Positions 5,958 to 39,651 of a stretch of DNA of 52,387 bases are shown piece by piece. The notes beneath the pieces are model-generated. The model was given only the letters and a program-made list of their open reading frames with translations. It was not told where the DNA came from and searched no databases. The DNA comes from a virus. Taxonomy: Duplodnaviria; Caudoviricetes. The position numbers and the translations under genes were made by a program. The first letter of the stretch is position 1. Every line of letters begins with the position of its first letter. The stretch lies in IMG/VR virus record IMGVR_UViG_3300021378_000034, positions 1 to 52,387 of that record; one strand, given 5' to 3'.

Positions 5958-6550
5958 TGCAAAGTTTATTTGATTTTATTATAAAACCAAAAAACGAAAG
6001 ATACGATAACAAAAAATATATAGATGGTCAAGAGCTTTTAGTTAATACTGAAATCTCTGATCATCAATATGTTAGTCGTACTGGAATTGTTTTAAATGTA
6101 CCTAAGTCTGAAAAAACTGAATTACAAATTGGTGATGAAGTTATTCTACATCACAATGTGTTTAGAAGATGGTACAATCAATACGGTGTGGAAAAAAATT
6201 CACGTGGCTATTATAAAGATAATCTTTATTTTGTTAAGTCAGATCAAATATTTCTATACAAAAGAGATAACAAATGGAACGCACCCAAAGGCTTCTGTTT
6301 TGTTAAACCAATCAAATCTACTGATATATTAAATAACGAGAAAGAACAAGCCCTAAGGGGCATTATAAAGCATGTTGACAAGGACATTAGCAGTTTAATA
6401 GAGAAAGAAGATTTAGTTGGGTTTACACCTAGCAGCGAATACGAATTTATTGTAGACGGTGAAAGAATGTATAGGGTATTAACTAATTCAATATCTATTA
6501 AATATGAACGTCAAGGAAACGAAAAAGAATATAATCCAAGCTGGGCATGA
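5957..6550 (+). CDS. GroES-like co-chaperonin (two tandem GroES-like halves)
   Basis: Two halves of the pattern F(I/V)KP...G(I)(V/I)...(G/E)D(E/L)V..., resembling GroES strands; located beside the head genes. Confidence 0.55.
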   Translation: MQSLFDFIIKPKNERYDNKKYIDGQELLVNTEISDHQYVSRTGIVLNVPKSEKTELQIGDEVILHHNVFRRWYNQYGVEKNSRGYYKDNLYFVKSDQIFLYKRDNKWNAPKGFCFVKPIKSTDILNNEKEQALRGIIKHVDKDISSLIEKEDLVGFTPSSEYEFIVDGERMYRVLTNSISIKYERQGNEKEYNPSWA

Positions 6551-6779
6551 AGCAGTCAAAGAACTTATTAAAGTTGCTAAAGAACCTATTGTTGAAACTG
6601 ATGATGACATCTCAGCCGATAGACTCAAGAACGCTGCAGCCACTAAAAAGCTCGCAATATTCGATGCATTTGAGATACTAGGTAGAATCGAAGAAGAAAA
6701 CGATATACTTAATAACAAGCCTAAAAAAGAAACTGAAGCAGAAGTGTTTAGTGGGTTTGCAGAAAGAAGATCTAAATAA
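6504..6779 (+). CDS. Probable terminase small subunit
   Basis: Short helical protein immediately upstream of, and coupled to, TerL. Positional inference. Confidence 0.5.
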   Translation: MNVKETKKNIIQAGHEAVKELIKVAKEPIVETDDDISADRLKNAAATKKLAIFDAFEILGRIEEENDILNNKPKKETEAEVFSGFAERRSK

Positions 6780-8986
6780 TGTACAAGCAGAGTTTATATA
6801 AGGTTATAGACCCCATTAAAATAACCACTATTAAAAGATTAAATAAATCTAAAAAGTGGGAGTATGGATACAACGAAGAGCATGATGTTGTTGTTATATC
6901 AAAGACAGGACAAATAGGCGAAGTGTATAGCATACAGAATTTAAAAATAGCACTGCCAAAATCAAACAACGTTGATACTCAAAATGATCAGTGGACTCCA
7001 CACGAGTATCCTAAAGAGCTTAAAACAATCAAGAGTATATTTGATTGGAAAGATTATCCGGATGAATTTAAACAAAGATGGCATGCATATATTGATAAAG
7101 AATTTACTAAACGTGATGAAGGGCATTGGTTCAAGAGCAAAGGGGTTCCCACTTATATTACTGGCACTCATTATATGTACTTGCAGTGGACCAAGATTGA
7201 TGTTGGGAGACCAGACTTTCGAGAAGCCAATAGATTATTCTTTATTTATTGGGAAGCGTGTAAAGCAGATAGACGGTGTTATGGAATGTGCTATCTCAAG
7301 AATAGACGTTCAGGTTTTTCGTTTATGGCATCCTCAGAGACAGTTAACTTGGCTACCGTATCTTCCGATGCACGGTACGGAATACTGTCCAAATCTGGAG
7401 CCGATGCGAAGAAAATGTTCACAGATAAGGTGGTACCAATATCGATCAATTATCCATTCTTTTTCAGACCCATCCAGGACGGTATGGATCGCCCCAAGAC
7501 AGAACTCGCGTACAGAGTACCCGCTTCGAAATTTACACGTAAAAGATTCGAATCAAAAGATAGAGCCCAGGAAATCGCTGGATTGGACACCACTATCGAC
7601 TGGAAAAATACCGGGGACAATTCATATGATGGAGAGAAACTCGCACTTCTCGTCCATGATGAAGCCGGCAAATGGGAACGCCCGGAAAACATTCTCAATA
7701 ACTGGAGAGTCACAAAAACCACGCTTAGACTTGGTTCGAGAATAATAGGTAAGTGTATGATGGGGTCAACGAGTAATGCTCTTGACAAAGGAGGTGAGAA
7801 TTTTAAAAAATTATATAATAATTCAGATGTTACGAAACGGAATAAAAATGGACAGACTCGTTCGGGACTATATTCTTTGTTCATACCTATGGAATGGAAT
7901 TTCGAAGGATTCATCGATTCTTATGGAATACCTGTCTTTAACACACCGAAAGAGCCTGTTACCGACAACCAGGGAGATAATATCAACGTCGGGGTTATTG
8001 AACATTGGGAGAATGAAGTAGATGGTTTAAAAGGAGATCAAGACGGTTTAAATGAATTTTATAGACAGTTTCCACGTACAGAGGAACACGCATTTAGAGA
8101 TGAAGCTAAGAATAGTATATTTAACTTAGCTAAGATATATGAGCAAATTGACTTTAATGATGATATAACAACAGAAGCAAATGTAACAACAGGAAGCTTC
8201 TCTTGGCAAAATGGCATTAAAGATACCAAAGTGCAATTTACACCAAATCCAAATGGAAGATTTAAAATAAGTTGGGTACCGGGTATTACATTACAAAATA
8301 ACATCATTAATAAAAATGGTATTAAATATCCTGGTAACGAACATATGGGCGCTTTCGGTTGTGACAGTTATGATATATCAGGAACAACAGATGGCAAAGG
8401 ATCTAAAGGTGCATTGCACGGATTAACAAAATTTAGTATGGAGGATGCTCCTCCTAATAGATTTTTTTTAGAATATGTAGCTAGGCCACAAACAGCGGAA
8501 ATGTTTTTTGAAGATGTTTTAATGGCATTAGTGTTTTATAGCATGCCAATACTTGCGGAAAATAATAAACCAAGATTATTATATTACTTAAGAAGAAGAG
8601 GGTACAGGGGATATTCTATGAATAGGCCTGATAGATTGTGGAATAAATTATCTGTTACTGAAAAAGAAATTGGTGGCATACCAAATTCAAGTGAAGATAT
8701 AAGACAAGCTCACGCTGCAGCAATTGAAACATATATTAACAGCCACGTAGGTATTACACCTAACGGAGATTACGGAGATTTATATTTTAATGAAACATTA
8801 AACGATTGGGCTAAGTTTGATATAAATAAAAGAACCAAGTTTGATGCGGCAATTAGTTCAGGGCTAGCAATTATGGCTTGCAATAAAAATAAATACAGAC
8901 CGAGTGCAGAAAAACAAAAATCAAAAGTTAACATTAACTTTTCGAGATACGAAAACAAAGGAATTACATCAAAAATAATTAATTAA
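6779..8986 (+). CDS. terL: Terminase large subunit
   Basis: Walker A-like KNRRSGFS, Walker B LLVHDEAGKW, motif III MGST, and RNase H-like nuclease GCDSYD...ENN; lies upstream of the portal. Confidence 0.92.
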   Translation: MYKQSLYKVIDPIKITTIKRLNKSKKWEYGYNEEHDVVVISKTGQIGEVYSIQNLKIALPKSNNVDTQNDQWTPHEYPKELKTIKSIFDWKDYPDEFKQRWHAYIDKEFTKRDEGHWFKSKGVPTYITGTHYMYLQWTKIDVGRPDFREANRLFFIYWEACKADRRCYGMCYLKNRRSGFSFMASSETVNLATVSSDARYGILSKSGADAKKMFTDKVVPISINYPFFFRPIQDGMDRPKTELAYRVPASKFTRKRFESKDRAQEIAGLDTTIDWKNTGDNSYDGEKLALLVHDEAGKWERPENILNNWRVTKTTLRLGSRIIGKCMMGSTSNALDKGGENFKKLYNNSDVTKRNKNGQTRSGLYSLFIPMEWNFEGFIDSYGIPVFNTPKEPVTDNQGDNINVGVIEHWENEVDGLKGDQDGLNEFYRQFPRTEEHAFRDEAKNSIFNLAKIYEQIDFNDDITTEANVTTGSFSWQNGIKDTKVQFTPNPNGRFKISWVPGITLQNNIINKNGIKYPGNEHMGAFGCDSYDISGTTDGKGSKGALHGLTKFSMEDAPPNRFFLEYVARPQTAEMFFEDVLMALVFYSMPILAENNKPRLLYYLRRRGYRGYSMNRPDRLWNKLSVTEKEIGGIPNSSEDIRQAHAAAIETYINSHVGITPNGDYGDLYFNETLNDWAKFDINKRTKFDAAISSGLAIMACNKNKYRPSAEKQKSKVNINFSRYENKGITSKIIN
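7116..7745 (+). CDS. Candidate overprinted gene in the +1 frame of terL (lipoprotein-like N-terminus)
   Basis: Frame is stop-free from 6972 to 7742. From ATG 7116 it reads MKGIGSRAKGFPLILLALIICTCS, and it coincides with a visible local GC rise. Confidence 0.45.
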   Translation: MKGIGSRAKGFPLILLALIICTCSGPRLMLGDQTFEKPIDYSLFIGKRVKQIDGVMECAISRIDVQVFRLWHPQRQLTWLPYLPMHGTEYCPNLEPMRRKCSQIRWYQYRSIIHSFSDPSRTVWIAPRQNSRTEYPLRNLHVKDSNQKIEPRKSLDWTPLSTGKIPGTIHMMERNSHFSSMMKPANGNARKTFSITGESQKPRLDLVRE

Positions 8987-8987
8987 T

Positions 8988-11411
8988 ATGGCTGAGTCAG
9001 TTATAAAAAGTTACTTCCCAAGCCAAACAGCTAGCGATGATGAAAAATTAGGATTGGATTACGGTCTTAATGTTGCTAGAGCTATCCAAAATGAGTGGTT
9101 TAAAAAAGATAGAGGATCAAATAGATTTTTTGTTAATCAAAACAATTATCACAAGTTAAGATTATATGCTAGGGGAGAACAAAGCATACAAAAATACAAA
9201 GACGAATTATCTATTAACGGTGATTTATCTTATTTAAATTTAGATTGGAAGCCAGTACCAATAATTCCAAAGTTTGTAGATATTGTAGTAAACGGTATTG
9301 CAGAAAGAACTTATGATATAAAAGCACATTCACAAGATCAGAATGGTGTTAACAAGAGGACACAGTATATGGAAGGCATCCTTGCCGACATGAGAACTAA
9401 AGAATTTGGTAACTACGTTCAAGAACAGTTTGGCCTTAACGTATTTAATAATGATCCTGCTACGCTACCGGATAATGAAGATGAATTGCAATTGCATATG
9501 CAGCTTAATTACAAGCAAGCAGTTGAAATAGCGGAAGAACAAGCAATACAAACTATACTCAATCAAAATCAATACGAATTAATAAAGAAAAGATTCTTTT
9601 ATGATTTAACTGTTTTAGGTATTGGCTGTGTTAAAACATTGTTTACACCATCAGAAGGCATTGTAGTTGATTATGTGGATCCTGCTAATATAGTTTATTC
9701 TTATACTGAATCACCTTATTTTGACGACATATATTATGTAGGTGAAGTTAAAACAATAACTATAAGTGAATTAAAGAAACAATTCCCTAATTTAACTAAC
9801 GAAGAGTTAAAAGCAATAACAGAGCAAGGTAATCAGGATTATAGTATTTACAATAAATACAACAGCCAACAACAAAATCAAGATAATAATTCAGTTCAAG
9901 TTATGTACTTTAATTATAAAACCTACATGAATGAGGTTTATAAAGTTAAAGAAGTATCAACAGGTGCTGAAAAAATTATTAAGAAAACAGATGCGTTTAA
10001 TCCTCCAATGGATAACAATTTAAGATTTGAAAGAATTGCTAAAAACATAGAGGTATTATACGAAGGTGTATTTGTTCCAGGTTCTAATAAATTATTAAAA
10101 TGGGAACTTGCGGATAACATGCTCCGTGAAAAGAGCGATGTTAATAAAGTTAAACTTAATTATTCTATTGTAGCGCCTAGAATGTATAATGGTAAAATTG
10201 AATCTTTAGTAAGTAGAGTTACAGGCTTTGCTGATATGATTCAATTAACACATTTAAAAATACAACAAGTATTATCAAGAATGGTTCCTGACGGTGTTTA
10301 TTTAGACGCTGATGGATTAGCTGAAATTGATTTAGGTAACGGTACAAACTACAATCCTCAAGAGGCATTGAATATGTTTTTCCAAACAGGATCGGTAATT
10401 GGTAGATCATTTACGTCTGAGGGCGATATGAACCCTGGTAAAATACCTATACAAGAAATAAGCAATAATGGCGGCGCTAATAAATTAGCCCAACTAATCA
10501 GTACATATAATTATTATATGCAAATGGTTAGAGACGCTACTGGTTTAAATGAAGCTAGAGACGGAAGCACACCTGATAAACACGCTTTAGTGGGTGTTCA
10601 AAAACTTGCTGCTGCAAATTCAAACACAGCAACAAGACACATATTGCAAAGTGGTTTATTTTTAACAGCTGAACTTGCAGAAAAAATATCATTAAGAATA
10701 TCAGACGTTATAGAATACTCGCCGACAAGAGATGCATTTATACAAAGTATTGGTGCTCATAATGTGGCTACATTGGAAGAAATGTCAGAATTACATTTAT
10801 ATGATTTTGGTATATACTTAGAATTAGCGCCAGACGAAGAAGAAAAACAATTACTTGAAAACAATATTCAAGTTGCAATTGCACAAAATAACATAGAGCT
10901 TGAAGATGCTATTGATATTAGAGAAATTAAAAATACTAAATTAGCAAATCAAGTACTTAAATTAAGAAGAAAGAAAAAGCTTGAAAGAGATCAGAAAGTA
11001 CAGCAGCAAAATATACAAGCTCAATCCCAAGCAAATGCACAAGCTCAACAAGTTGCTGCTCAAGCAGAAGTACAAAAACAACAGGCTTTAACACAAAGTC
11101 AAATACAATTAGCGCAAGCTAAATCACAATTTGAAATGCAAAGAATGCAAGGTGAAGTTGAAATGAAAAAACAACTTATGCAATTAGAATTTCAAATGAA
11201 TATGCAAATTCAGCAAATGCAAACACAGGCTAAGGACGCTGAAATGAATGCTAAAGAAGACAGAAAAGACGATCGAACAAAAATACAAGCTAGTCAACAA
11301 AGCGAGCTCATAGAGCAGCGAAACAGTAAAACACCCCCTAAAAAATTCGAATCCAGTGGAAACGATATATTAAGCGGTGATTTTGGCTTAGGTGCGTTTG
11401 AACCTAAGTAA
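8988..11411 (+). CDS. Portal protein
   Basis: 807 aa between TerL and scaffold/MCP, with a TGLNEARDG motif and a Q-rich C-terminal coiled coil typical of P22-like portal barrels. Confidence 0.88.
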   Translation: MAESVIKSYFPSQTASDDEKLGLDYGLNVARAIQNEWFKKDRGSNRFFVNQNNYHKLRLYARGEQSIQKYKDELSINGDLSYLNLDWKPVPIIPKFVDIVVNGIAERTYDIKAHSQDQNGVNKRTQYMEGILADMRTKEFGNYVQEQFGLNVFNNDPATLPDNEDELQLHMQLNYKQAVEIAEEQAIQTILNQNQYELIKKRFFYDLTVLGIGCVKTLFTPSEGIVVDYVDPANIVYSYTESPYFDDIYYVGEVKTITISELKKQFPNLTNEELKAITEQGNQDYSIYNKYNSQQQNQDNNSVQVMYFNYKTYMNEVYKVKEVSTGAEKIIKKTDAFNPPMDNNLRFERIAKNIEVLYEGVFVPGSNKLLKWELADNMLREKSDVNKVKLNYSIVAPRMYNGKIESLVSRVTGFADMIQLTHLKIQQVLSRMVPDGVYLDADGLAEIDLGNGTNYNPQEALNMFFQTGSVIGRSFTSEGDMNPGKIPIQEISNNGGANKLAQLISTYNYYMQMVRDATGLNEARDGSTPDKHALVGVQKLAAANSNTATRHILQSGLFLTAELAEKISLRISDVIEYSPTRDAFIQSIGAHNVATLEEMSELHLYDFGIYLELAPDEEEKQLLENNIQVAIAQNNIELEDAIDIREIKNTKLANQVLKLRRKKKLERDQKVQQQNIQAQSQANAQAQQVAAQAEVQKQQALTQSQIQLAQAKSQFEMQRMQGEVEMKKQLMQLEFQMNMQIQQMQTQAKDAEMNAKEDRKDDRTKIQASQQSELIEQRNSKTPPKKFESSGNDILSGDFGLGAFEPK

Positions 11412-31789: not shown

Positions 31790-33408
31790 AAAAACTATTG
31801 TTTTTATTATTACCATTATTCTGTTTAGCGCAAGATTTAAAACTTGATCACAGTTATACTAACGCTGAGGATTTTAAAGTAGGGGATACTATAACAATAA
31901 AGTTCAATACAATACAGGTAACGAATAATGCTGATCCTAACTTGTATATGTTTGATTACGAGTACAATAATAAATTGTTACAAAAAATTACACATCGGTT
32001 TAAAGTTGCGGATAACGAAGCTAACACGAACGCACAAACCTCATTAACGCATTGGGATGGTTTTAAGTTTAAAATTTTAAGTACTTACGATGAAGATAAT
32101 CTTTCTGCGCAATATTTACATGGTTGGCAAAACCGAACACAAGTACAAGGAGACACCAATTCTTATCCTACGGATAATGACTGGTCTGTTGAAAGAATAA
32201 CCATCCAAGACGGTGTTGGAATTACATATAACAATACATTAGTTGAAGTTGATTTTAAAATTAAAGATAAAATAAATACAAATTACAGTAATTATAATAA
32301 TGTAACGCATCTTAACTGGATGAAGGCACATGACAATTCTAATAACACAGCCTATGATGTTGATGCAATGCAACAAAAAATTACTTTAGCTGGTGTTGAA
32401 GGTGGTGACGCCGGGAGTGTCACTATAAATTTAAAAACAGAAAACGATAAACCAACGCATTATAAATATAACATATTAAGTAATAATAGTAGTGTAGCGA
32501 GTGGTAATTTTGACGCTAATTCACAGGCTATAGTTACAGGTTTAGAAAACGACGTTAAATATACTATTGATATAACAGTCGATAATGATGCTGCTAGCGA
32601 TTGGTTAGATGATGTTGTAACTGTTACGGATGTTTTTTTAGTATTTAAAGAAGCTATTAAAGCTGGCAGTAGTCCAGGTGGGCAAGCTAATACTTTTACA
32701 CATAGTATACAATTTTTATTAGGCGAAGTTAATAACAGCGGAAATGTAGATTTTGATGACTCTTACATCTTGCTGAGTCATATAATGAATGAAAACGTTA
32801 GTGAATGGTTTACAAGCTCTACAAACGGAGCTAAAAATGTTTGGGGCGAAAAAAATCAATATGGGTATTCCACAAATGATTATTACTTTGGACAAAGAAA
32901 AGATTTTACTCCTACTGATTCTAATAAGGTTTTTGATTTTGGTCATGGACTTATTGGAGATGTAGATTTTTCACATTCATTTGAACCAATAGTACAAAGC
33001 GAGAACAGTGGTGTCGCAAGAGGTGTTGTTCAGAATTCATCTGAAAATTTAAATTTAGATATTTCCACAAGTTTAGTTAACGATAAAGTTGAATTAGTAG
33101 TTGAGCTCGAAAAAGAAGATTTAGCGGGCATGCAATTTGTAATTCAATTTGACGATGCTTTATTAGAATTTGAAGAAGTTCAATTTGATACCGGCAACTT
33201 ATTAACTAATTTTGCAACAGAGCGAAACAATAAATTATATTTTGGTAGTCTAAGTGTTGAGAACCAAGAAAATATAAAACCTGGTAAACCGTATAAGATT
33301 ATATTTAATCCTAAACAAACAATAACTAATACATCCGGTTTAATTTATTTTCAAACCACAGACGCTGTAACAGAAGAAGGAACTAAAGTAATTTTAAAAA
33401 TACAATAA
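31786..33408 (+). CDS. Secreted cohesin/dockerin-like beta-sandwich protein
   Basis: Signal peptide MKKLLFLLLPLFCLA/Q. Cohesin-like N- and C-terminal domains (VGDTITIKF...YEYNNKLL; LAGMQFVIQFDDALLEF) and dockerin-like loops (VTVTD; GEVNNSGNVDFDD). Confidence 0.55.
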   Translation: MKKLLFLLLPLFCLAQDLKLDHSYTNAEDFKVGDTITIKFNTIQVTNNADPNLYMFDYEYNNKLLQKITHRFKVADNEANTNAQTSLTHWDGFKFKILSTYDEDNLSAQYLHGWQNRTQVQGDTNSYPTDNDWSVERITIQDGVGITYNNTLVEVDFKIKDKINTNYSNYNNVTHLNWMKAHDNSNNTAYDVDAMQQKITLAGVEGGDAGSVTINLKTENDKPTHYKYNILSNNSSVASGNFDANSQAIVTGLENDVKYTIDITVDNDAASDWLDDVVTVTDVFLVFKEAIKAGSSPGGQANTFTHSIQFLLGEVNNSGNVDFDDSYILLSHIMNENVSEWFTSSTNGAKNVWGEKNQYGYSTNDYYFGQRKDFTPTDSNKVFDFGHGLIGDVDFSHSFEPIVQSENSGVARGVVQNSSENLNLDISTSLVNDKVELVVELEKEDLAGMQFVIQFDDALLEFEEVQFDTGNLLTNFATERNNKLYFGSLSVENQENIKPGKPYKIIFNPKQTITNTSGLIYFQTTDAVTEEGTKVILKIQ

Positions 33409-33767
33409 TGAAAAAACTATTTATACTATTATTATTTATAAGCTGTTCAGAAACTGTATATATTGAAAGACCTGTACAAGAAGTACCAGAATCTTTATTT
33501 ATGCAAGAGACTATAGGGCTTAAATTAGAAAGTTATATAGTGCAAGACAAGGTCAGAATAAACACAAAGTTACCATCAGATGGTAAATACAGAATTAAGA
33601 TATTAGATTTTTCAAATAAAATAATAAACCAAGAAATAATAACCGGAAGAGAGGGTGATAATATATTAAACATATACGTTAACTCACTGCCCGTAAGTTC
33701 TTATACAGTTGAATTGTATACTAATACAAATAGCTTTATAGGTAGACAAACATTTTCAATGAAATAA
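33408..33767 (+). CDS. Lipoprotein with Ig-like domain resembling a T9SS C-terminal domain
   Basis: MKKLFILLLFIS/C lipobox; IKILDFSNKII...GDNILNIYVNSLPVSSYTVEL pattern. Confidence 0.55.
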   Translation: MKKLFILLLFISCSETVYIERPVQEVPESLFMQETIGLKLESYIVQDKVRINTKLPSDGKYRIKILDFSNKIINQEIITGREGDNILNIYVNSLPVSSYTVELYTNTNSFIGRQTFSMK

Positions 33768-33768
33768 T

Positions 33769-33999
33769 ATGAAAGAATTAAAGAACCAAATAATAACAGC
33801 AATAGGATTAATTATAACTGCTGGGGCGGCTTTAATCATAGCTAATATGGAGGCTATATTTAGTCCTGAAGATGATTCACCACCGCCAATAATGGAGCAA
33901 ACAATAACAATACCACCAAGTATTGTAAAGGATACTTTGGTTATAACTAAAACAGTTGTACAAAAACCAAAGAAAGAAGAAAGAGAAATAGATTGGTAA
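33769..33999 (+). CDS. Small single-pass membrane protein
   Basis: N-terminal TM segment IITAIGLIITAGAALIIA and a Pro-rich linker. Confidence 0.6.
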   Translation: MKELKNQIITAIGLIITAGAALIIANMEAIFSPEDDSPPPIMEQTITIPPSIVKDTLVITKTVVQKPKKEEREIDW

Positions 34000-36206: not shown

Positions 36207-36665
36207 ATGATTAGTGAACACATTAGTAAAAAAGAAGCAACATTCAGCGCGACAGCAACAAGAAAAGGAATAGATAATATACCAGGCGAATACGAGCTAC
36301 AAAATATGGAACTCATTGCTGAAAAAGTATTTGAACCATTAAGAAAAGCTGTAAATGGCCCAATAAAAATTAATTCATTTTTTCGCTCAGAAGAATTGAA
36401 TAAAGCAATTGGAGGAAGCAGTCGATCGCAACATTGCCAAGGGCGCGCAATGGATTTAGATGACGTGTATGGGTATATGTCTAATAAAGATATGTACAAT
36501 TATATAAAAAATAATTTAGATTTTGATCAAATGATTTGGGAATTTGGCACAGAAGATAACCCTGATTGGGTTCACGTTAGTTATGTAGATGTTGATTCAA
36601 ATAGGCGGCGTTGTTTGCAAGCTTATAAAGATGAAAACAATAAAACTTGTTATAAAGAAATATAA
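36207..36665 (+). CDS. Endolysin, peptidase M15 family
   Basis: Zn-peptidase motifs INSFFRS...SQHCQGRAMD...WVHVSY. Confidence 0.88.
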   Translation: MISEHISKKEATFSATATRKGIDNIPGEYELQNMELIAEKVFEPLRKAVNGPIKINSFFRSEELNKAIGGSSRSQHCQGRAMDLDDVYGYMSNKDMYNYIKNNLDFDQMIWEFGTEDNPDWVHVSYVDVDSNRRRCLQAYKDENNKTCYKEI

Positions 36666-36746: not shown

Positions 36747-38468
36747 TTATCCGTCACAAGCTAAACAATTTTCATCCATTGCAGCTTCTGCAATATCACC
36801 TCTAAGAACAGATTCTGTTCTCATATAATATAAGGTTTTAATACCTTTCTTCCACGCTTCATAATGAACCTTATTAATCCACTTGGGTTCTGCAATACTT
36901 GGAAACGCTAAATTTAAACTAACAGATTGATCTATATACTGTTGTCTTATTCCAGCTTGATTAACTAATTCTAATTGATTAAGTTCTTTAAATGTTTTGA
37001 AAACTTCTTTAGCAGGTGTTTCCCATTTACCTACCGTAATATTATTAAGTTCTTTAACACCTTGAACTGAACCTCCATCTTTTAATATTTTATTCCAAAC
37101 CTTTTCATTATTAATTTTATGCTTTTTTAACAGCTTTAATAATGTAGGGTTCTTGCGAATGAAAGTACCCTTAGCACTTTGCTCCGTAAATACATTAGCG
37201 GCCCAGGGTTCGATACCGGGAGAAACATTGCCACTAAGTTTACTATTGCTAACAGTAGGAGCAATGGCACGGAGATGAGTATTCCTAAAACCTGAACCCC
37301 TACACCATAGAGGTTCACCAAATTCTTCTGCAAGTGCCATTGAAGCTCTCTCACTTTCAATTTTAATTTGTGAAAATATTTTTCTTGTTTCATATTGTGA
37401 TAATAATCCTTCAAACGGTAAACCTTGATCTTGTAAATAAGTATGCCAGCCAAGCACCCCTAATCCTAAAGCTCTACCTTTTTCAGCAGATCTTACAGAA
37501 TTATGAAAGCCAACTTTACCTTTAGATTTTTGTATAAATTCTTCTAACACGCCATCTAAAAACCATATACTATCGTATATTAGATTAGTGTTTTTCCACT
37601 CATCGTATTTGGCTAAATTCAACGATGATAAACAACAAACAAACGAATGTGATTCATCTGTGTGTAATGTTATTTCACTACATATGTTTGTCATATGTAC
37701 TTTTAACCCGTGCTTTCTGTATTGCTCTGGGTTATTTTTATTTGTATTGCCCTTAAATAAGATATAAGGCTCTCCAGTTGCTTTACGCTTTTGAAGTAGC
37801 TTTCCCCACTTCTTTCTAGCTTTAGCATCTCCACTTTCAACTCTTCGCATGAACTTGTCGCCGACCACAGCGCACTGGTGGAGGTTGAGCGATTGACGAT
37901 TAACGTCTCCTTTAGGTTCTCTAATCTCAAGCCATTCTTCAAAGTCGGGATGTTCAATATTGATGTTAACTGAAGCAGCTCCTCGTCTGACAGACCCTTG
38001 ATTAGTGGCCAGTATTGTCGAATCGTATATCTTACAAAAAGGGACAACTCCATCACTTGTTCCATTTCCCTTAATTTTGTCGCCAGCGGGTCTGATTTGA
38101 TTTATGCCAATGCCAACTCCACCGCCGTGCTTAGCGAGTAGCATCATCTCTAAATTTTTATTTCCAATGTCATATATTGAATCTGCCACATCCATGCCAA
38201 AGCATGATATTGGCAAACCCCTGTCTGAGCCAGTATTAGATAGCACAGGAGAAGCCAAACATAGCCAACCATTCCATATATATTCAAAAAATGTTTTAGC
38301 TAGTTCTGGGCGTCCTAAACGCTTCGCTACTGTTTCGCATACACGATTGTAGGCATCTTTTGGTGATTCGTCTTTAATTAAATATCCACCACCAATAGTT
38401 TTTTTATAAACATCAGTTTCACCCCAGGCAGGATAATCAATTCCTTTTTTCCAGTTATTGTTCCACAT
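36747..38468 (-). CDS. nrdA: Class I ribonucleotide reductase alpha subunit (compact, no ATP cone)
   Basis: PISCF, KHGGGVG, TNICSEI, IAPTVS, DQSVSLN, KTLYY and C-terminal CLACDG. Confidence 0.95.
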   Translation of the reverse strand: MWNNNWKKGIDYPAWGETDVYKKTIGGGYLIKDESPKDAYNRVCETVAKRLGRPELAKTFFEYIWNGWLCLASPVLSNTGSDRGLPISCFGMDVADSIYDIGNKNLEMMLLAKHGGGVGIGINQIRPAGDKIKGNGTSDGVVPFCKIYDSTILATNQGSVRRGAASVNINIEHPDFEEWLEIREPKGDVNRQSLNLHQCAVVGDKFMRRVESGDAKARKKWGKLLQKRKATGEPYILFKGNTNKNNPEQYRKHGLKVHMTNICSEITLHTDESHSFVCCLSSLNLAKYDEWKNTNLIYDSIWFLDGVLEEFIQKSKGKVGFHNSVRSAEKGRALGLGVLGWHTYLQDQGLPFEGLLSQYETRKIFSQIKIESERASMALAEEFGEPLWCRGSGFRNTHLRAIAPTVSNSKLSGNVSPGIEPWAANVFTEQSAKGTFIRKNPTLLKLLKKHKINNEKVWNKILKDGGSVQGVKELNNITVGKWETPAKEVFKTFKELNQLELVNQAGIRQQYIDQSVSLNLAFPSIAEPKWINKVHYEAWKKGIKTLYYMRTESVLRGDIAEAAMDENCLACDG

Positions 38469-38661
38469 CTCTTTTTTCTAATTCTTTAAGTTCTTCAACA
38501 AGCTTATCCCATTCCTCTTGCCCAATATGTAATTGAAAAGAAGTAAGGGTGCCCTGAGCTAACATTTTAACAGCATCTAAATCTTTTAATGCTCTTGTTA
38601 AAGCACCACCCAAAACTTCAACTTGTTCTTGTAATTGTTTTATATTTTTTTGTACTCCCAT
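38455..38661 (-). CDS. Hypothetical helical protein
   Basis: ORF between nrdB and nrdA. Confidence 0.6.
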   Translation of the reverse strand: MGVQKNIKQLQEQVEVLGGALTRALKDLDAVKMLAQGTLTSFQLHIGQEEWDKLVEELKELEKRDVEQ

Positions 38662-38673
38662 AATTTTTAATTT

Positions 38674-39651
38674 TTACCAAACGTCTTCAAAATCTTCGCC
38701 TTCATTTGCTTTACTATAGTCAGTCGGCCTAATAGCGAAGAAATCAGTGTGAGTGTGACCCCCAGTAAGATGGTCGAACCAAGCCATTTTGTCAATTGAC
38801 TTTTGGTCATATTCGAATTTAAATTTTCCTTCTGCTTTATAGCCCAATTCTTTAATTTTATCACTTGTTCGTTTTTTAATAAAATGTTTAAGGTCATATT
38901 CTGTTATTCCTTCAATATCACCCATTTCAAATAACTTGCTTATGTAAGTCATTTCCGCATTGTGCATAGTTAATGCTGCGTCGTAAATGTGTTCTTTGCA
39001 TTCTTCTTTTAAACCAGGAATTTGCGAACACATATGTCTAAATAATTGGCATCCCATTTTAGAATGCAATGATTCATCTCTAACTGACCACTTCATTTGT
39101 TGGCCAACACCTTTTAATAAGTTACGCATTTGAAAACTGTATAGCACAGCGAATGCGGAATATAAACTAACGCCTTCTGCAAAAGCAGAAAATGTAGCTA
39201 ATGATTTACCTATACCTACAGGATCATTACCGTCATAAGCAACTAAGTTATCAAACCTAGCGGCCGTTGCAGGTTCATGTAAGAATGCTTCATAATCCTC
39301 TAAGCCTAATGTTTCATTTAAGTAACTATAAGCTACTGCGTGAATTGTTTCTTGTGAACCAAACATCATAGCCATTTGTTGTATTTCGTGCTTAGGAAAC
39401 CAGCCAACAACTTTTTGTGTCCAGTAATCTGATACAGCACATTCAGTTTGGGCAAAGCCTAATAATATATTGCCAACTAAGTTTTTTTCTTTGTCATTTA
39501 GTTTTTCGTTCCAATCTTTTAAATCACCTGACATAGGTATTTCAGTATGTAACCAAAATGCTTGCGCTTGCTTTAACCAACCTTCTGTATAATATTCAGG
39601 ATATTCAAAAGGCTTGTAAGGGATTCTTTCTGTAAATAAGGGTGCTTTCAT
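38674..39651 (-). CDS. nrdB: Class I ribonucleotide reductase beta subunit
   Basis: ETIHAVAY, EGVSLYSAF, RDESLH metal-ligand motifs and DFF C-terminus. Confidence 0.95.
   Translation of the reverse strand: MKAPLFTERIPYKPFEYPEYYTEGWLKQAQAFWLHTEIPMSGDLKDWNEKLNDKEKNLVGNILLGFAQTECAVSDYWTQKVVGWFPKHEIQQMAMMFGSQETIHAVAYSYLNETLGLEDYEAFLHEPATAARFDNLVAYDGNDPVGIGKSLATFSAFAEGVSLYSAFAVLYSFQMRNLLKGVGQQMKWSVRDESLHSKMGCQLFRHMCSQIPGLKEECKEHIYDAALTMHNAEMTYISKLFEMGDIEGITEYDLKHFIKKRTSDKIKELGYKAEGKFKFEYDQKSIDKMAWFDHLTGGHTHTDFFAIRPTDYSKANEGEDFEDVW

What the first reader, a model, noticed from the sequence alone, without database searches (positions are those of the whole stretch)
6972..8021. Probable overprinted gene inside the terminase ATPase domain
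Seen: the +1 frame is stop-free for 257 codons (6972-7745) and reopens at 7776-8021. Elsewhere in this AT-rich genome, NTA codons close that frame quickly. Over about 7120-8000, terL visibly switches to C/G-ending codons (ctc, gtc, atc). From ATG 7116, near where the shift begins, the product starts MKGIGSRAKG-FPLILLALII-CTCS (basic, hydrophobic, Cys), continues with a W/Y/P-rich middle and ends in a polar tail. Known: lysis lipoproteins such as Rz1 are overprinted, and no spanin is evident in this window. Inference: a 209-aa hidden lipoprotein. Caveat: +1 frames of T-ending codons are hydrophobic by default.
Basis: partly seen in the sequence, partly recalled or inferred. Interest (0 to 1): 0.75.

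Follow-up and report, generated by a model that had tools for sequence, protein, structure and literature searches.

The report
Hidden gene inside phage terminase gene
A second gene of about 210 codons lies one base out of step inside the DNA-packaging (terminase) gene of an uncultured marine phage; selection keeps it open in many diverged relatives, and it probably makes a membrane-targeted protein with a floppy, positively charged tail whose job is unknown.

Summary
The +1 frame of terL (6779-8986) has no stop for 264 codons, the top outlier of 64 gene-by-frame tests in the window. It is not just a GC-rich patch. 49 of 82 terL sequences sampled through terL keep an ATG-started +1 ORF of at least 140 codons, although synonymous sites are near saturation. 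Stop-making NTA codons are absent only where they would close the frame. GC3 rises only as far as each lineage's ORF runs. The strongest synonymous constraint in terL (7139-7265) lies on the ORF's hydrophobic leader and CTCSG motif, and only in ORF-bearing lineages. A lineage with 65-67% terL identity has the same ORF with a canonical lipobox. AlphaFold2 gives only an N-terminal helix and a low-confidence, basic tail. The window's own leader fails the strict lipobox. The spanin reading is unsupported: the ORF lies far from the endolysin, and a lipoprotein/TM gene pair sits near it. The gene was lost repeatedly, so it is probably accessory. Translation is unproven. This scan has already found the same ORF family on other DNA.

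The parts
6779..8986 (+). terL, terminase large subunit (735 aa), the host gene; the portal gene follows at 8988-11411
   Evidence: PHROG 6681, E 6e-165; portal PHROG 6547, E 2.7e-151. No Pfam hit. 87 GenBank phage records match it, best 62.9% identity, mostly Flavobacterium and Cellulophaga phages.
6951..7745 (+). Stop-free +1 frame, 264 codons plus the stop at 7743-7745. In-frame ATGs at 6984, 7062, 7083 and 7116.
   Evidence: In relatives the frame usually opens only after a stop at the column of 7091, so the conserved gene begins at about 7083-7116.
7116..7745 (+). Embedded gene as read from ATG 7116: 209 aa, or 220 aa from ATG 7083. Which start is used is not known.
   Evidence: Most relatives start at the columns of 7094 (23), 7061 (12) or 7082 (8). 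An ATG-started ORF of at least 140 codons is present in 49 of 82 sequences.
7116..7190 (+). Export or anchor leader: basic n-region MKGIGSRAKG (7116-7145), hydrophobic core FPLILLALII (7146-7175), and CTCSG (7176-7190)
   Evidence: KD19 hydropathy 1.93, above stop-free shuffles (P 0.022). terL wobble bases are fixed here in ORF-bearing lineages only: T in 43-47 of 48 at 7148-7166; C in 46/48 at 7178; G in 47/48 at 7181; G in 43/48 at 7184. In the closed clade the last three are 6/24, 5/24 and 8/24. AlphaFold2 places its only helices here.
7139..7265 (+). Peak of synonymous-site conservation in terL that is specific to ORF-bearing lineages
   Evidence: Normalised excess codon identity is 0.27-0.42 in 48 ORF-bearing sequences, against -0.09 to 0.15 in 24 closed-clade sequences. 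It is the highest stretch in the gene for the ORF-bearing set.
7191..7742 (+). Basic, hydrophilic tail of 184 aa, modelled with low confidence
   Evidence: pI 10.0, net charge +12, GRAVY -0.73. pLDDT is below 50 almost throughout. In 46 full-length ORFs the tail has GRAVY -0.84 and a maximum KD19 of 0.58. The same frame in 33 lineages without the ORF has +0.24 and 1.66. There is little site-specific synonymous constraint.
7776..8021 (+). Second +1 ORF (81 aa): not part of the gene, a chance ORF
   Evidence: Free of stops in 3 of 82 sequences; most have 3-5 stops.
7450..7914 (-). Antisense ORF (154 aa): a chance by-product of the GC-richer patch
   Evidence: At most 1 stop in 3 of 82 sequences; most have 3-6 stops. 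No PHROG or Pfam hit.

Best explanation
A real protein-coding gene of about 210 codons is overprinted in the +1 frame on the ATPase domain of terL, from before Walker A to just past Walker B. I infer that it is translated from the late terL mRNA by internal initiation at an ATG around 7083-7116. Its product has a positively charged N-terminus, one hydrophobic helix that ends in Cys-Thr-Cys-Ser-Gly, and a basic, hydrophilic tail of about 185 residues that is probably disordered. This is the build of a protein exported across, or tethered to, the cytoplasmic membrane with its tail in the periplasm. It is a lipoprotein in the sister lineage with a canonical lipobox; in this window it is either a lipoprotein or a signal-anchored protein. 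Selection acts on three things: keeping the frame open, the exact sequence of the leader, and the polar, basic make-up of the tail. To serve them, terL has been recoded at its wobble positions, which produces the visible GC-rich patch. The gene is older than the sampled radiation, since it is present at 65-67% terL identity, and it has been lost repeatedly. I therefore take it to be an accessory envelope function at the late stage of infection. My best guess is masking of the envelope or receptor (superinfection exclusion, or protection of progeny from debris), or else a lysis accessory. Shown: the ORF, its conservation, the selection signatures and the leader features. Inferred: translation, export, topology and role.
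For: (1) Length beyond chance: local shuffle P(0 stops)=0.001; 264 codons against a null maximum of 158 in 300 shuffles, first of 64 tests. (2) Conservation: in the sample drawn through terL (80 IMG/VR loci plus MW202828), 49 of 82 sequences including the window have an ATG ORF of at least 140 codons, and 21 have at least 200. Among 20 fully open sequences, codon identity at conserved residues is 0.546 in the region and 0.576 downstream, close to the codon-usage expectation. The open frames are therefore not simply inherited. (3) Context-specific stop avoidance: in all 20, NTA codons are 0 of 15-21 before A/G-starting codons but 5-10 of 13-17 before C/T-starting codons. Shuffles expect 3.6-6.6 stops, and P(0) is at most 0.002 in each. 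(4) GC3 follows the ORF: 0.43-0.55 inside against 0.22-0.33 downstream in open sequences and about 0.2-0.3 in closed ones. In 20 of 21 truncated forms GC3 falls after that lineage's own stop. (5) Site-specific constraint on the leader and CTCSG only where the ORF exists. (6) The leader is more hydrophobic than stop-free shuffles in 23 of 23 sequences, P<0.05 in 17; the tail is recoded to be hydrophilic. (7) Internal controls: the neighbouring +1 ORF and the antisense ORF are closed in nearly all relatives. (8) A second lineage (18 loci, terL 65-67% identical) has a 230-236-codon +1 ORF at the same place, with GC3 0.45-0.49 against 0.19-0.22 and P(0) at most 0.001. All 18 leaders match a PS51257-like lipobox. 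(9) A tree built on terL flanks puts full-length ORFs in the basal lineages and shows several separate losses.
Against: There is no evidence of translation. RNA-labelled libraries hold near-identical contigs over the region, but these are contigs, may include DNA, and cannot be told apart from terL mRNA. The middle and tail of the ORF show no site-specific synonymous constraint beyond the flanks, and raw synonymous identity is not raised over the whole ORF. The gene is missing or truncated in many relatives: 33 of 112 scored sequences have under 90 codons, including the 85%-identical L118 and L119. It is therefore dispensable. AlphaFold2 finds no fold (mean pLDDT 42 and 39), and Pfam and PHROGs find nothing, as would also be true of a non-gene. 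The window's leader fails the strict lipobox. No ORF-specific promoter was found: TAnnTTTG at the column of 7034 occurs in 21 of 73 ORF-bearing and 21 of 33 ORF-lacking sequences. Bacteroidota use little Shine-Dalgarno pairing (recalled), so no initiation signal can be scored.
Confidence: 0.75

Rival explanations
1. There is no gene. The segment is a higher-GC patch of terL, acquired by recombination or selected for an mRNA, DNA or translation-speed reason, and GC-ending codons leave the +1 frame open by chance.
For: GC3 is raised exactly where the frame is open. An antisense ORF of 154 aa also opens in the patch. The tail shows no site-specific synonymous constraint. No fold or family was found.
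Against: Shuffles that keep the local codon composition still expect 3.6-6.6 stops (P(0) at most 0.002). NTA codons are frequent in the patch but never occur before A/G-starting codons. Low-GC3 relatives such as L068 (GC3 0.26 inside its ORF) and L001 (0.33) still keep 155-161-codon ORFs. In 20 of 21 truncated forms GC3 falls after that lineage's own stop. GC at codon positions 1 and 2 and terL amino-acid identity are unremarkable in the patch, which argues against a foreign insert. The antisense ORF and the second +1 ORF are not conserved.
Confidence: 0.05
2. The gene is real and is an o-spanin (Rz1-like outer-membrane lipoprotein) that completes lysis.
For: It is an embedded +1-frame gene with a leader that ends in Cys, like Rz1 in Rz and T7 18.7 in 18.5 (T7 annotation). 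A sister lineage has a canonical lipobox. PHROGs names no spanin in the window's lysis region.
Against: The host gene is terL, not an i-spanin, and the endolysin lies 28 kb away. The part after the leader is 184 aa with 8.2% Pro; o-spanins are much shorter (recalled). There is no C-terminal TM segment that would suit a u-spanin. A lipoprotein gene and a single-TM, Pro-rich gene lie next to each other 2.4 kb upstream of the endolysin. The gene has been lost in many lineages. Relatives of the window's lysis-region lipoprotein occur with the hidden ORF (window, L122, L124, L125) and without it (L118-L121), so the 'either one or the other' pattern does not hold for this lipoprotein.
Confidence: 0.1
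3. The +1 frame is reached by programmed ribosomal frameshifting from terL and yields a fusion of the terL N-terminus with the alternative-frame tail, rather than a separate protein.
For: Both frames are open. Public protein sets contain chimeras that switch between the two frames (P0033/34, P0051, P0066, P0032, P0052, P0068, P0116).
Against: Most relatives have a +1 stop at the column of 7091 followed directly by ATG, so any shift site would have to lie inside the leader. The strongest selection falls on a basic-then-hydrophobic segment that makes sense only at an N-terminus. The chimeras join at different places, and one switches frame several times, as assembly or sequencing indels would. 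No slippery site was sought.
Confidence: 0.03
4. The conserved 7139-7265 stretch is a nucleic-acid element, such as a packaging signal, an internal promoter or an RNA structure, and the long ORF is secondary to it.
For: Nucleotide conservation is high there. Contigs of many related phages pile up at 7110-7231 in four RNA-labelled libraries.
Against: This does not explain stop avoidance and polar recoding over a further 480 nt. The fixed wobble bases translate into a coherent run of Leu followed by Thr-Cys-Ser. A second conserved stretch at 7859-7913 is shared by lineages with and without the ORF, whereas 7139-7265 is specific to ORF bearers. No fold or covariation test of this stretch was run.
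Confidence: 0.05

Closest known systems
Lambda Rz1 within Rz, and T7 gene 18.7 within 18.5 (embedded o-spanin lipoprotein genes)
   Same: A gene lies wholly inside another phage gene on the same strand and out of frame. The product has a leader that ends in Cys and works in the envelope. The T7 layout was seen in NC_001604; the lambda case is recalled.
   Different: Here the host gene is the terminase ATPase, not the partner i-spanin. The product is about 210 aa, not about 60-85. Its tail is basic and Ser/Thr/Arg-rich. The window's lipobox is not canonical. The gene is not in the lysis region.
T7 genes 19.2 and 19.3 inside gene 19 (terminase large subunit)
   Same: These are +1-frame ORFs annotated inside a podophage terL: 38016-38273 and 38553-38726 within 37370-39130 (I worked out the frame from those coordinates).
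   Different: They have 85 and 57 codons, are annotated 'hypothetical', and no evidence of conservation or function was seen here. My one literature search on them failed on a term-length error and was not repeated. They are not related in sequence, and T7 did not appear among the terL matches.
phiX174 lysis gene E within gene D (recalled)
   Same: An overprinted +1 gene inside an essential morphogenesis gene. The product is an N-terminal transmembrane helix followed by a basic tail. It is thought to have arisen de novo.
   Different: E has 91 aa and belongs to a tiny ssDNA phage that has no endolysin. This phage has an endolysin and a 52-kb genome, so saving space is not an obvious driver.
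Embedded out-of-frame genes of mycobacteriophage Patience (PMC4324244)
   Same: Peptides were detected by mass spectrometry from ORFs wholly inside larger phage genes (gene 91 and gene 20). I read passages of the abstract, a results section and a supplementary figure legend.
   Different: The host genes differ (a DNA polymerase III alpha subunit and a MuF-like gene). One of those ORFs is stated not to be conserved in relatives. Here the situation is reversed: strong conservation and no proteomics. The supplementary figures could not be opened.
Phage lipoproteins that mask receptors, such as T5 Llp and Cor of phi80/HK022 (recalled)
   Same: Small exported or lipid-anchored accessory proteins of lytic or temperate phages. 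They are dispensable in the laboratory and patchily distributed, as this gene's repeated loss would suit.
   Different: There is no sequence or structural similarity to test, those genes stand alone, and the role here is only a guess.

Membership tests
Overprinted (embedded, out-of-frame) protein-coding gene | The alternative-frame ORF is longer than synonymous-codon shuffles of the host gene allow | tested here: met
   P(0 stops)=0.001 with a local shuffle. 264 codons against a null maximum of 158 in 300 shuffles, first of 64 tests.
Overprinted (embedded, out-of-frame) protein-coding gene | The open frame is kept in relatives whose synonymous sites have diverged | tested here: met
   49 of 82 sequences have at least 140 codons. 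The ORF is also present at 65-67% terL identity. Codon identity is near the chance level. The control ORFs are not kept.
Overprinted (embedded, out-of-frame) protein-coding gene | Reduced synonymous variation of the host gene across the overlap | tested here: inconclusive
   There is a clear peak over the leader, 7139-7265 (0.27-0.42 against -0.09 to 0.15 in lineages without the ORF). The middle and tail show no excess.
Overprinted (embedded, out-of-frame) protein-coding gene | The product is translated | not testable with these tools
   Only contigs from RNA-labelled libraries were available. No cultured phage in the GenBank collection carries the ORF.
Bacterial lipoprotein (signal peptidase II substrate) | A basic n-region followed by a hydrophobic h-region near the N-terminus | tested here: met
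   MKGIGSRAKG followed by FPLILLALII. KD19 is 1.93, above shuffles. The wobble positions of the h-region are fixed in ORF bearers.
Bacterial lipoprotein (signal peptidase II substrate) | A lipobox with G/A/S at position -1 before the Cys (PROSITE PS51257-type pattern, written from memory) | tested here: not met
   The window has I before Cys21 and T before Cys23. 18 of 73 ORFs of at least 140 codons match, all of them in the sister lineage. With T allowed at -1, 66 of 73 match, the window included. At both positions before a Cys the terL frame allows only I or T; T is chosen before the second Cys in 46 of 48.
Bacterial lipoprotein (signal peptidase II substrate) | Lipid modification and globomycin-sensitive processing | not testable with these tools
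   This needs an experiment. SignalP was not available.
o-spanin (Rz1-like) | The gene is embedded in, overlaps or adjoins an i-spanin gene in the lysis cassette | tested here: not met
   It is embedded in terL. The endolysin is at 36207-36665.
o-spanin (Rz1-like) | A short, Pro-rich mature lipoprotein (sizes recalled) | tested here: not met
   184 residues follow the leader, with 8.2% Pro and a net charge of +12.
u-spanin (T1 gp11-like) | A lipoprotein signal plus a C-terminal transmembrane segment (recalled) | tested here: not met
   The tail's maximum KD19 is 0.58 across 46 full-length ORFs. No helix is predicted after residue 34.

The most novel reading that the evidence does not exclude
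A gene born de novo inside the most conserved domain of the packaging ATPase has persisted since before terL diverged by a third of its residues. It has acquired a working lipoprotein or export signal, in two different registers in two lineages. Being read from the terL message, it ties an envelope function to the moment of DNA packaging; that function could be receptor masking, superinfection exclusion or control of lysis timing. If so, it would be one of the longest and best-conserved overprinted genes in a tailed dsDNA phage, and evidence that standard gene callers miss a layer of phage-host interaction genes.
Probability: 0.25. Interest if true: 0.8.

Novelty: new variant of a known kind. 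Interest (0 to 1): 0.68.

Why it matters
Annotation pipelines forbid genes nested in other genes, so this family is unnamed. A profile search finds 152 representatives of 50%-identity clusters, and the only source name seen for any of them was 'hypothetical protein'. The case shows that an essential, highly conserved motor domain can carry a second gene about 630 nt long. It also shows the cost, which is wholesale recoding of terL wobble positions. The system is natural and well replicated, with dozens of lineages that have the gene and several independent losses. That makes it suitable for studying how overprinted genes are born, constrained and lost. In practice the GC3 island in terL is a simple marker of the gene. 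terL trees and codon-usage analyses of these marine Flavobacteriia-type phages should allow for it. If the product acts on the envelope, it is a new candidate for phage-host interaction in an abundant marine group.

Tried and rejected
Family searches gave nothing for the ORF, the second +1 ORF or the antisense ORF in Pfam and PHROGs. The sister-lineage ORF also has no PHROG.

AlphaFold2 was run twice, with alignments of 36 and 58 sequences. Mean pLDDT was 42.1 and 38.7, so no fold search was run.

The ESM Atlas gave a best score of 0.86, below the 0.9 lead threshold. A 'Lipoprotein family' cluster scored 0.84 and BamE 0.82. I treat these as leads only.

tblastn of the ORF against GenBank phages found only MW202828.1 (30.5% identity over 76% of the query). 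That is residual similarity from the terL frame, and its +1 frame has 10 stops in 7116-7722.

Sequencing runs: 20 of 24 listed rows hold part of the stretch, and 6 are RNA-labelled. I laid four RNA-labelled runs from three studies. Contigs cover most of 6500-8150 at 90-99% identity. Because these are contigs, they show neither transcription, strand, starts nor translation. Four single-contig joints of low depth were ignored.

Internal promoter: the recalled Bacteroidota -7 motif TAnnTTTG stands at 7036-7043. At that column it occurs in 21 of 73 ORF-bearing and 21 of 33 ORF-lacking sequences, so it is not tied to the ORF.

Complementarity with a lysis-cassette lipoprotein, a lead from e1-6096271: relatives of the window's lipoprotein were found in 11 contigs. 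terL was found in 8 of the 10 contigs searched. L117 was not searched, and L123 is partial and was not scored. The ORF is intact in L122, L124 and L125, and absent or truncated in L118-L121. The same lipoprotein gave no match in 5 long ORF-lacking and 5 long ORF-bearing contigs, which shows nothing either way.

Literature: three full-text searches listed no paper on a gene nested in a terminase gene. PMC11564622 was opened for the word 'embedded' and proved irrelevant.

I considered and rejected an intein, an intron or a split terL, because the terL frame is continuous and matches PHROG 6681 in one stretch. I considered and rejected another genetic code, because no stop lies in the terL frame.

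Rows dropped: the class comparisons used 48 ORF-bearing and 24 closed sequences out of 82. Ten intermediate or duplicate rows were left out: L009, L012, L030, L059, L066, L067, L069, L073, L078 and L081. Loci L082-L105 were fetched with the ORF product as query, so they are biased towards ORF bearers. They are excluded from the 49-of-82 figure but included in the count of 112 scored sequences.


Full report
WHAT IS THERE. The window is a whole virus record of 52,387 bases. The gene at 6779-8986 encodes a 735-aa protein that matches PHROG 6681, terminase large subunit, over residues 23-732 (E 6e-165). The portal gene follows at 8988. Pfam has no model for it. By tblastn, 87 GenBank phage records match it, nearly all from Flavobacterium, Cellulophaga, Tenacibaculum and Maribacter phages at about 44% identity. 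The best is an uncultured podophage, MW202828.1, at 62.9%. The +1 frame of terL is free of stops from 6951 to 7742 (264 codons). The gene's other 29 +1 stops all lie outside that stretch, and the +2 frame has 97. GC rises to 0.40-0.47 over 7075-7749, and terL GC3 is 0.45 there against 0.24 downstream.

IS IT MORE THAN CHANCE IN THIS GENOME? Shuffling synonymous codons only within 7116-7722, which keeps the local GC-rich codon set, still gives 3.96 stops on average and no stops in 0.1% of shuffles. Against whole-gene shuffles the run of 264 codons exceeds all 300 (mean 75, maximum 158). It ranks first among 64 gene-by-frame tests on the 32 window genes of at least 150 aa.

RELATIVES. I added MW202828.1, aligned all terL proteins, threaded the codons back and read the +1 frame column by column.

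- 19 of the 81 relatives have no +1 stop in the columns of 7116-7722. All 19 have GC3 of 0.43-0.55 there, against 0.22-0.33 downstream.
- Counting ATG-started ORFs that span the column of 7300, 49 of 82 sequences (window included) have at least 140 codons, 21 have at least 200, and 54 have at least 100. 21 of the 82 have no ATG-started ORF across that column.
- The shorter forms end at recurrent places, the columns of 7532-7694.
- Two controls behave as non-genes should. The neighbouring +1 ORF (7776-8021) is stop-free in 3 of 82, and the antisense ORF (7450-7914) has at most one stop in 3 of 82.

THE OPEN FRAME IS NOT SIMPLY INHERITED. Among the 20 fully open sequences, the fraction of identical codons at conserved residues is 0.546 in the region and 0.576 downstream. 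That is only slightly above what pooled codon usage predicts. Synonymous sites have therefore turned over many times while the frame stayed open.

THE SIGNATURE OF SELECTION IS CONTEXT-SPECIFIC. In every one of the 20 sequences, Leu, Ile and Val codons ending in A make up 5-10 of the 13-17 such codons that precede a C/T-starting codon. They make up 0 of the 15-21 that precede an A/G-starting codon, where they would create TAA or TAG in the +1 frame. Local shuffles expect 3.6-6.6 stops, and P(0) is at most 0.002 in each. A plain GC-rich patch cannot produce this. In addition, in 20 of 21 truncated forms GC3 falls after that lineage's own stop. Some low-GC3 relatives still keep 155-161-codon ORFs.

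WHERE SELECTION SEES SEQUENCE. I computed a Synplot-like profile: codon identity at conserved residues, normalised to local codon usage, in 12-codon windows.

- In 48 ORF-bearing sequences the highest stretch in all of terL is 7139-7265 (0.27-0.42). In 24 sequences of the clade without the ORF the same stretch scores -0.09 to 0.15 (coarser bins).
- Site by site, terL wobble bases at 7148-7166 are T in 43-47 of 48 ORF bearers, which gives a run of Leu in the +1 frame. They are mixed and mostly A-rich in the closed clade.
- Tyr at 7178 uses TAC in 46/48 against 6/24 (+1 Thr rather than Ile).
- Leu at 7181 uses a G-ending codon in 47/48 against 5/24 (+1 Cys rather than Tyr or Phe).
- Gln at 7184 uses CAG in 43/48 against 8/24 (+1 Ser rather than Asn).
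- Gly at 7205 ends in G in 37/48 against 1/24 (all).

The conserved +1 peptide is therefore a leucine-rich core followed by C-T-C-S-G-(P)-(R/K)-L-(M/T)-L-G. The first Cys is imposed by terL (Met followed by Tyr), whereas the second Cys is selected. The middle and tail of the ORF show no such site-specific constraint.

THE PRODUCT. From ATG 7116 the window encodes MKGIGSRAKG-FPLILLALII-CTCSG followed by 184 residues with pI 10.0, net charge +12 and GRAVY -0.73. ATGs at 7062 and 7083 are also in frame. Relatives mostly start at the columns of 7094, 7061 or 7082, often straight after a +1 stop.

The leader's 19-residue hydropathy (1.7-2.7) exceeds the null mean in 23 of 23 sequences, with P<0.05 in 17 of 23; for the window P is 0.022. 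The tail shows the opposite trend. In 46 full-length ORFs it has GRAVY -0.84 and no hydrophobic segment (maximum KD19 0.58). The same frame in 33 lineages without the ORF has +0.24 and 1.66. Ser, Thr, Pro, Arg and Gly are up, and Leu, Val, Ile and Lys are down.

The protein thus has one hydrophobic segment at its N-terminus and a polar, basic remainder. AlphaFold2 with 36 and then 58 aligned sequences predicts only N-terminal helices (residues 3-34; then 2-14 and 22-34). pLDDT is below 50 almost everywhere else. I read this as a disordered tail, which is common in overprinted proteins. That generalisation is recalled; one search listed preprint 10.1101/229690 on the subject, of which I saw only the listing.

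A SECOND LINEAGE AND THE LIPOPROTEIN QUESTION. A word-based protein search with a relative's ORF returned 33 database proteins. A profile search over 1.84 billion cluster representatives returned 152 proteins with E at most 0.001, and 82 with E at most 1e-30. Gene callers have therefore often called this ORF, and the only source name seen was 'hypothetical protein'.

One divergent hit led to 18 IMG/VR loci whose terL is only 65-67% identical to the window's. All 18 carry a 230-236-codon ORF in the +1 frame at the same place. In the seven checked, GC3 is 0.45-0.49 inside against 0.19-0.22 outside, and shuffle P(0) is at most 0.001. Their leaders read MRKILKSST..LIIVLMVTGSC or ..LITGMLVIGSC, and all 18 match a PS51257-type lipobox. 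That pattern is written from memory. The CTCSG position reads YTSTG in these sequences.

Overall, 18 of 73 ORFs of at least 140 codons pass the strict pattern, and the window's does not. With Thr allowed at position -1, 66 of 73 pass. At both positions before a Cys the terL frame permits only Ile or Thr, and selection takes Thr before the second Cys. For this window, then, 'lipoprotein' is possible but unproven; a signal-anchored or SPase I-cleaved protein fits as well.

AGE AND LOSS. FastTree trees on the terL flanks, rooted on MW202828.1, place full-length ORFs in the basal lineages: the sister lineage, and L124/L125 at 72% identity. They show one large clade without the ORF, plus scattered losses in L071/L073, L080, L003, L019, L118/L119 and L120/L121. 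Of 112 scored sequences, 46 have at least 200 codons, 27 have 140-199, 6 have 90-139 and 33 have fewer than 90. This count includes the ORF-ascertained loci L082-L105. L118 and L119, at 85% terL identity to the window, have lost the ORF, while L122 at the same identity keeps it. The gene is old, selected where present and dispensable, which is the profile of an accessory gene.

NOT A SPANIN ON PRESENT EVIDENCE. The endolysin is at 36207-36665 (PHROG 894, E 2.6e-29). A gene for a canonical lipoprotein (33408-33767, MKKLFILLLFISC-SE...) lies 2.4 kb upstream of it. Next to that is a 76-aa gene with one N-terminal TM helix and a Pro-rich stretch (33769-33999). These are at least as good spanin candidates as the hidden gene, though PHROGs names neither.

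For this window's lipoprotein that does not hold. It occurs together with the intact hidden ORF in the window, L122, L124 and L125, and with a lost or truncated ORF in L118-L121.

WHAT IS KNOWN. Nested out-of-frame genes are classical in phages: Rz1 in Rz and phiX174 E in D (both recalled). T7 itself has the annotated pair 18.7 in 18.5, and two 'hypothetical' +1 ORFs, 19.2 and 19.3, inside its terL gene 19. Peptides from embedded out-of-frame genes were reported for mycobacteriophage Patience (PMC4324244, passages read). Three full-text searches listed nothing on a conserved gene nested in a terminase gene. No GenBank phage record carries this ORF. This scan has met the same ORF family on other genomes and reached similar conclusions (e1-6071460, e1-5854045, e1-5359376, e1-6096271). 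I re-derived the evidence here independently of those notes.

VERDICT. The hidden gene is very probably real (about 0.85). It probably encodes an exported or membrane-tethered protein with a disordered basic tail (about 0.7). It may be a lipoprotein in this genome (about 0.35). It is unlikely to be a spanin (about 0.1). Translation and function remain to be shown. It is a new family and an unusually long, old and well-replicated example of a known phenomenon.

Noticed in passing
window 37706-38101 (-), inside gene 36747-38468 (-): The ribonucleotide reductase large-subunit gene (Pfam PF02867, E 1.7e-93) has a +1-frame stop-free run of 132 codons. This exceeds all 300 synonymous shuffles (null mean 57, maximum 104). 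Host-gene GC3 is 0.37 inside the run against 0.26 for the whole gene. Relatives were not examined here.
   Followed up: partly
window 38676-38903 (-), inside gene 38674-39651 (-): The RNR small-subunit gene (PF00268, E 8.5e-54) has a +1 run of about 76 codons at its 3' end, above all 300 shuffles (null maximum 58). The run contains a hydrophobic stretch. Relatives were not examined.
   Followed up: no
window 7859-7913 (+): A second peak of synonymous-site conservation in terL (0.29-0.43) is shared by lineages with and without the hidden ORF. It coincides with a pile-up of related contigs at 7842-7902. It is unrelated to the ORF and its cause is unknown.
   Followed up: no
window 33408-33999 (+): Two adjacent genes lie 2.4 kb upstream of the endolysin. 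One encodes a 119-aa lipoprotein (leader MKKLFILLLFISC; weak DUF3244 hit below the Pfam cut-off). The other encodes a 76-aa protein with one N-terminal TM helix and a Pro-rich stretch. They are a possible spanin-like pair. PHROGs has no family for either.
   Followed up: partly
database proteins P0032-P0034, P0051, P0052, P0066, P0068, P0116: Public protein sets contain chimeras that switch between the terL frame and the hidden frame, in both directions and at different points. One switches several times, and P0033/P0034 skip a stretch that includes Walker A. These are probably indels in assemblies, which give long ORFs because both frames are open.
   Followed up: partly
window 7036-7043 (+): A match to the recalled Bacteroidota -7 promoter motif TAnnTTTG lies about 40-75 nt upstream of the candidate start codons. 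At that column it is as common in lineages without the ORF (21 of 33) as with it (21 of 73).
   Followed up: yes
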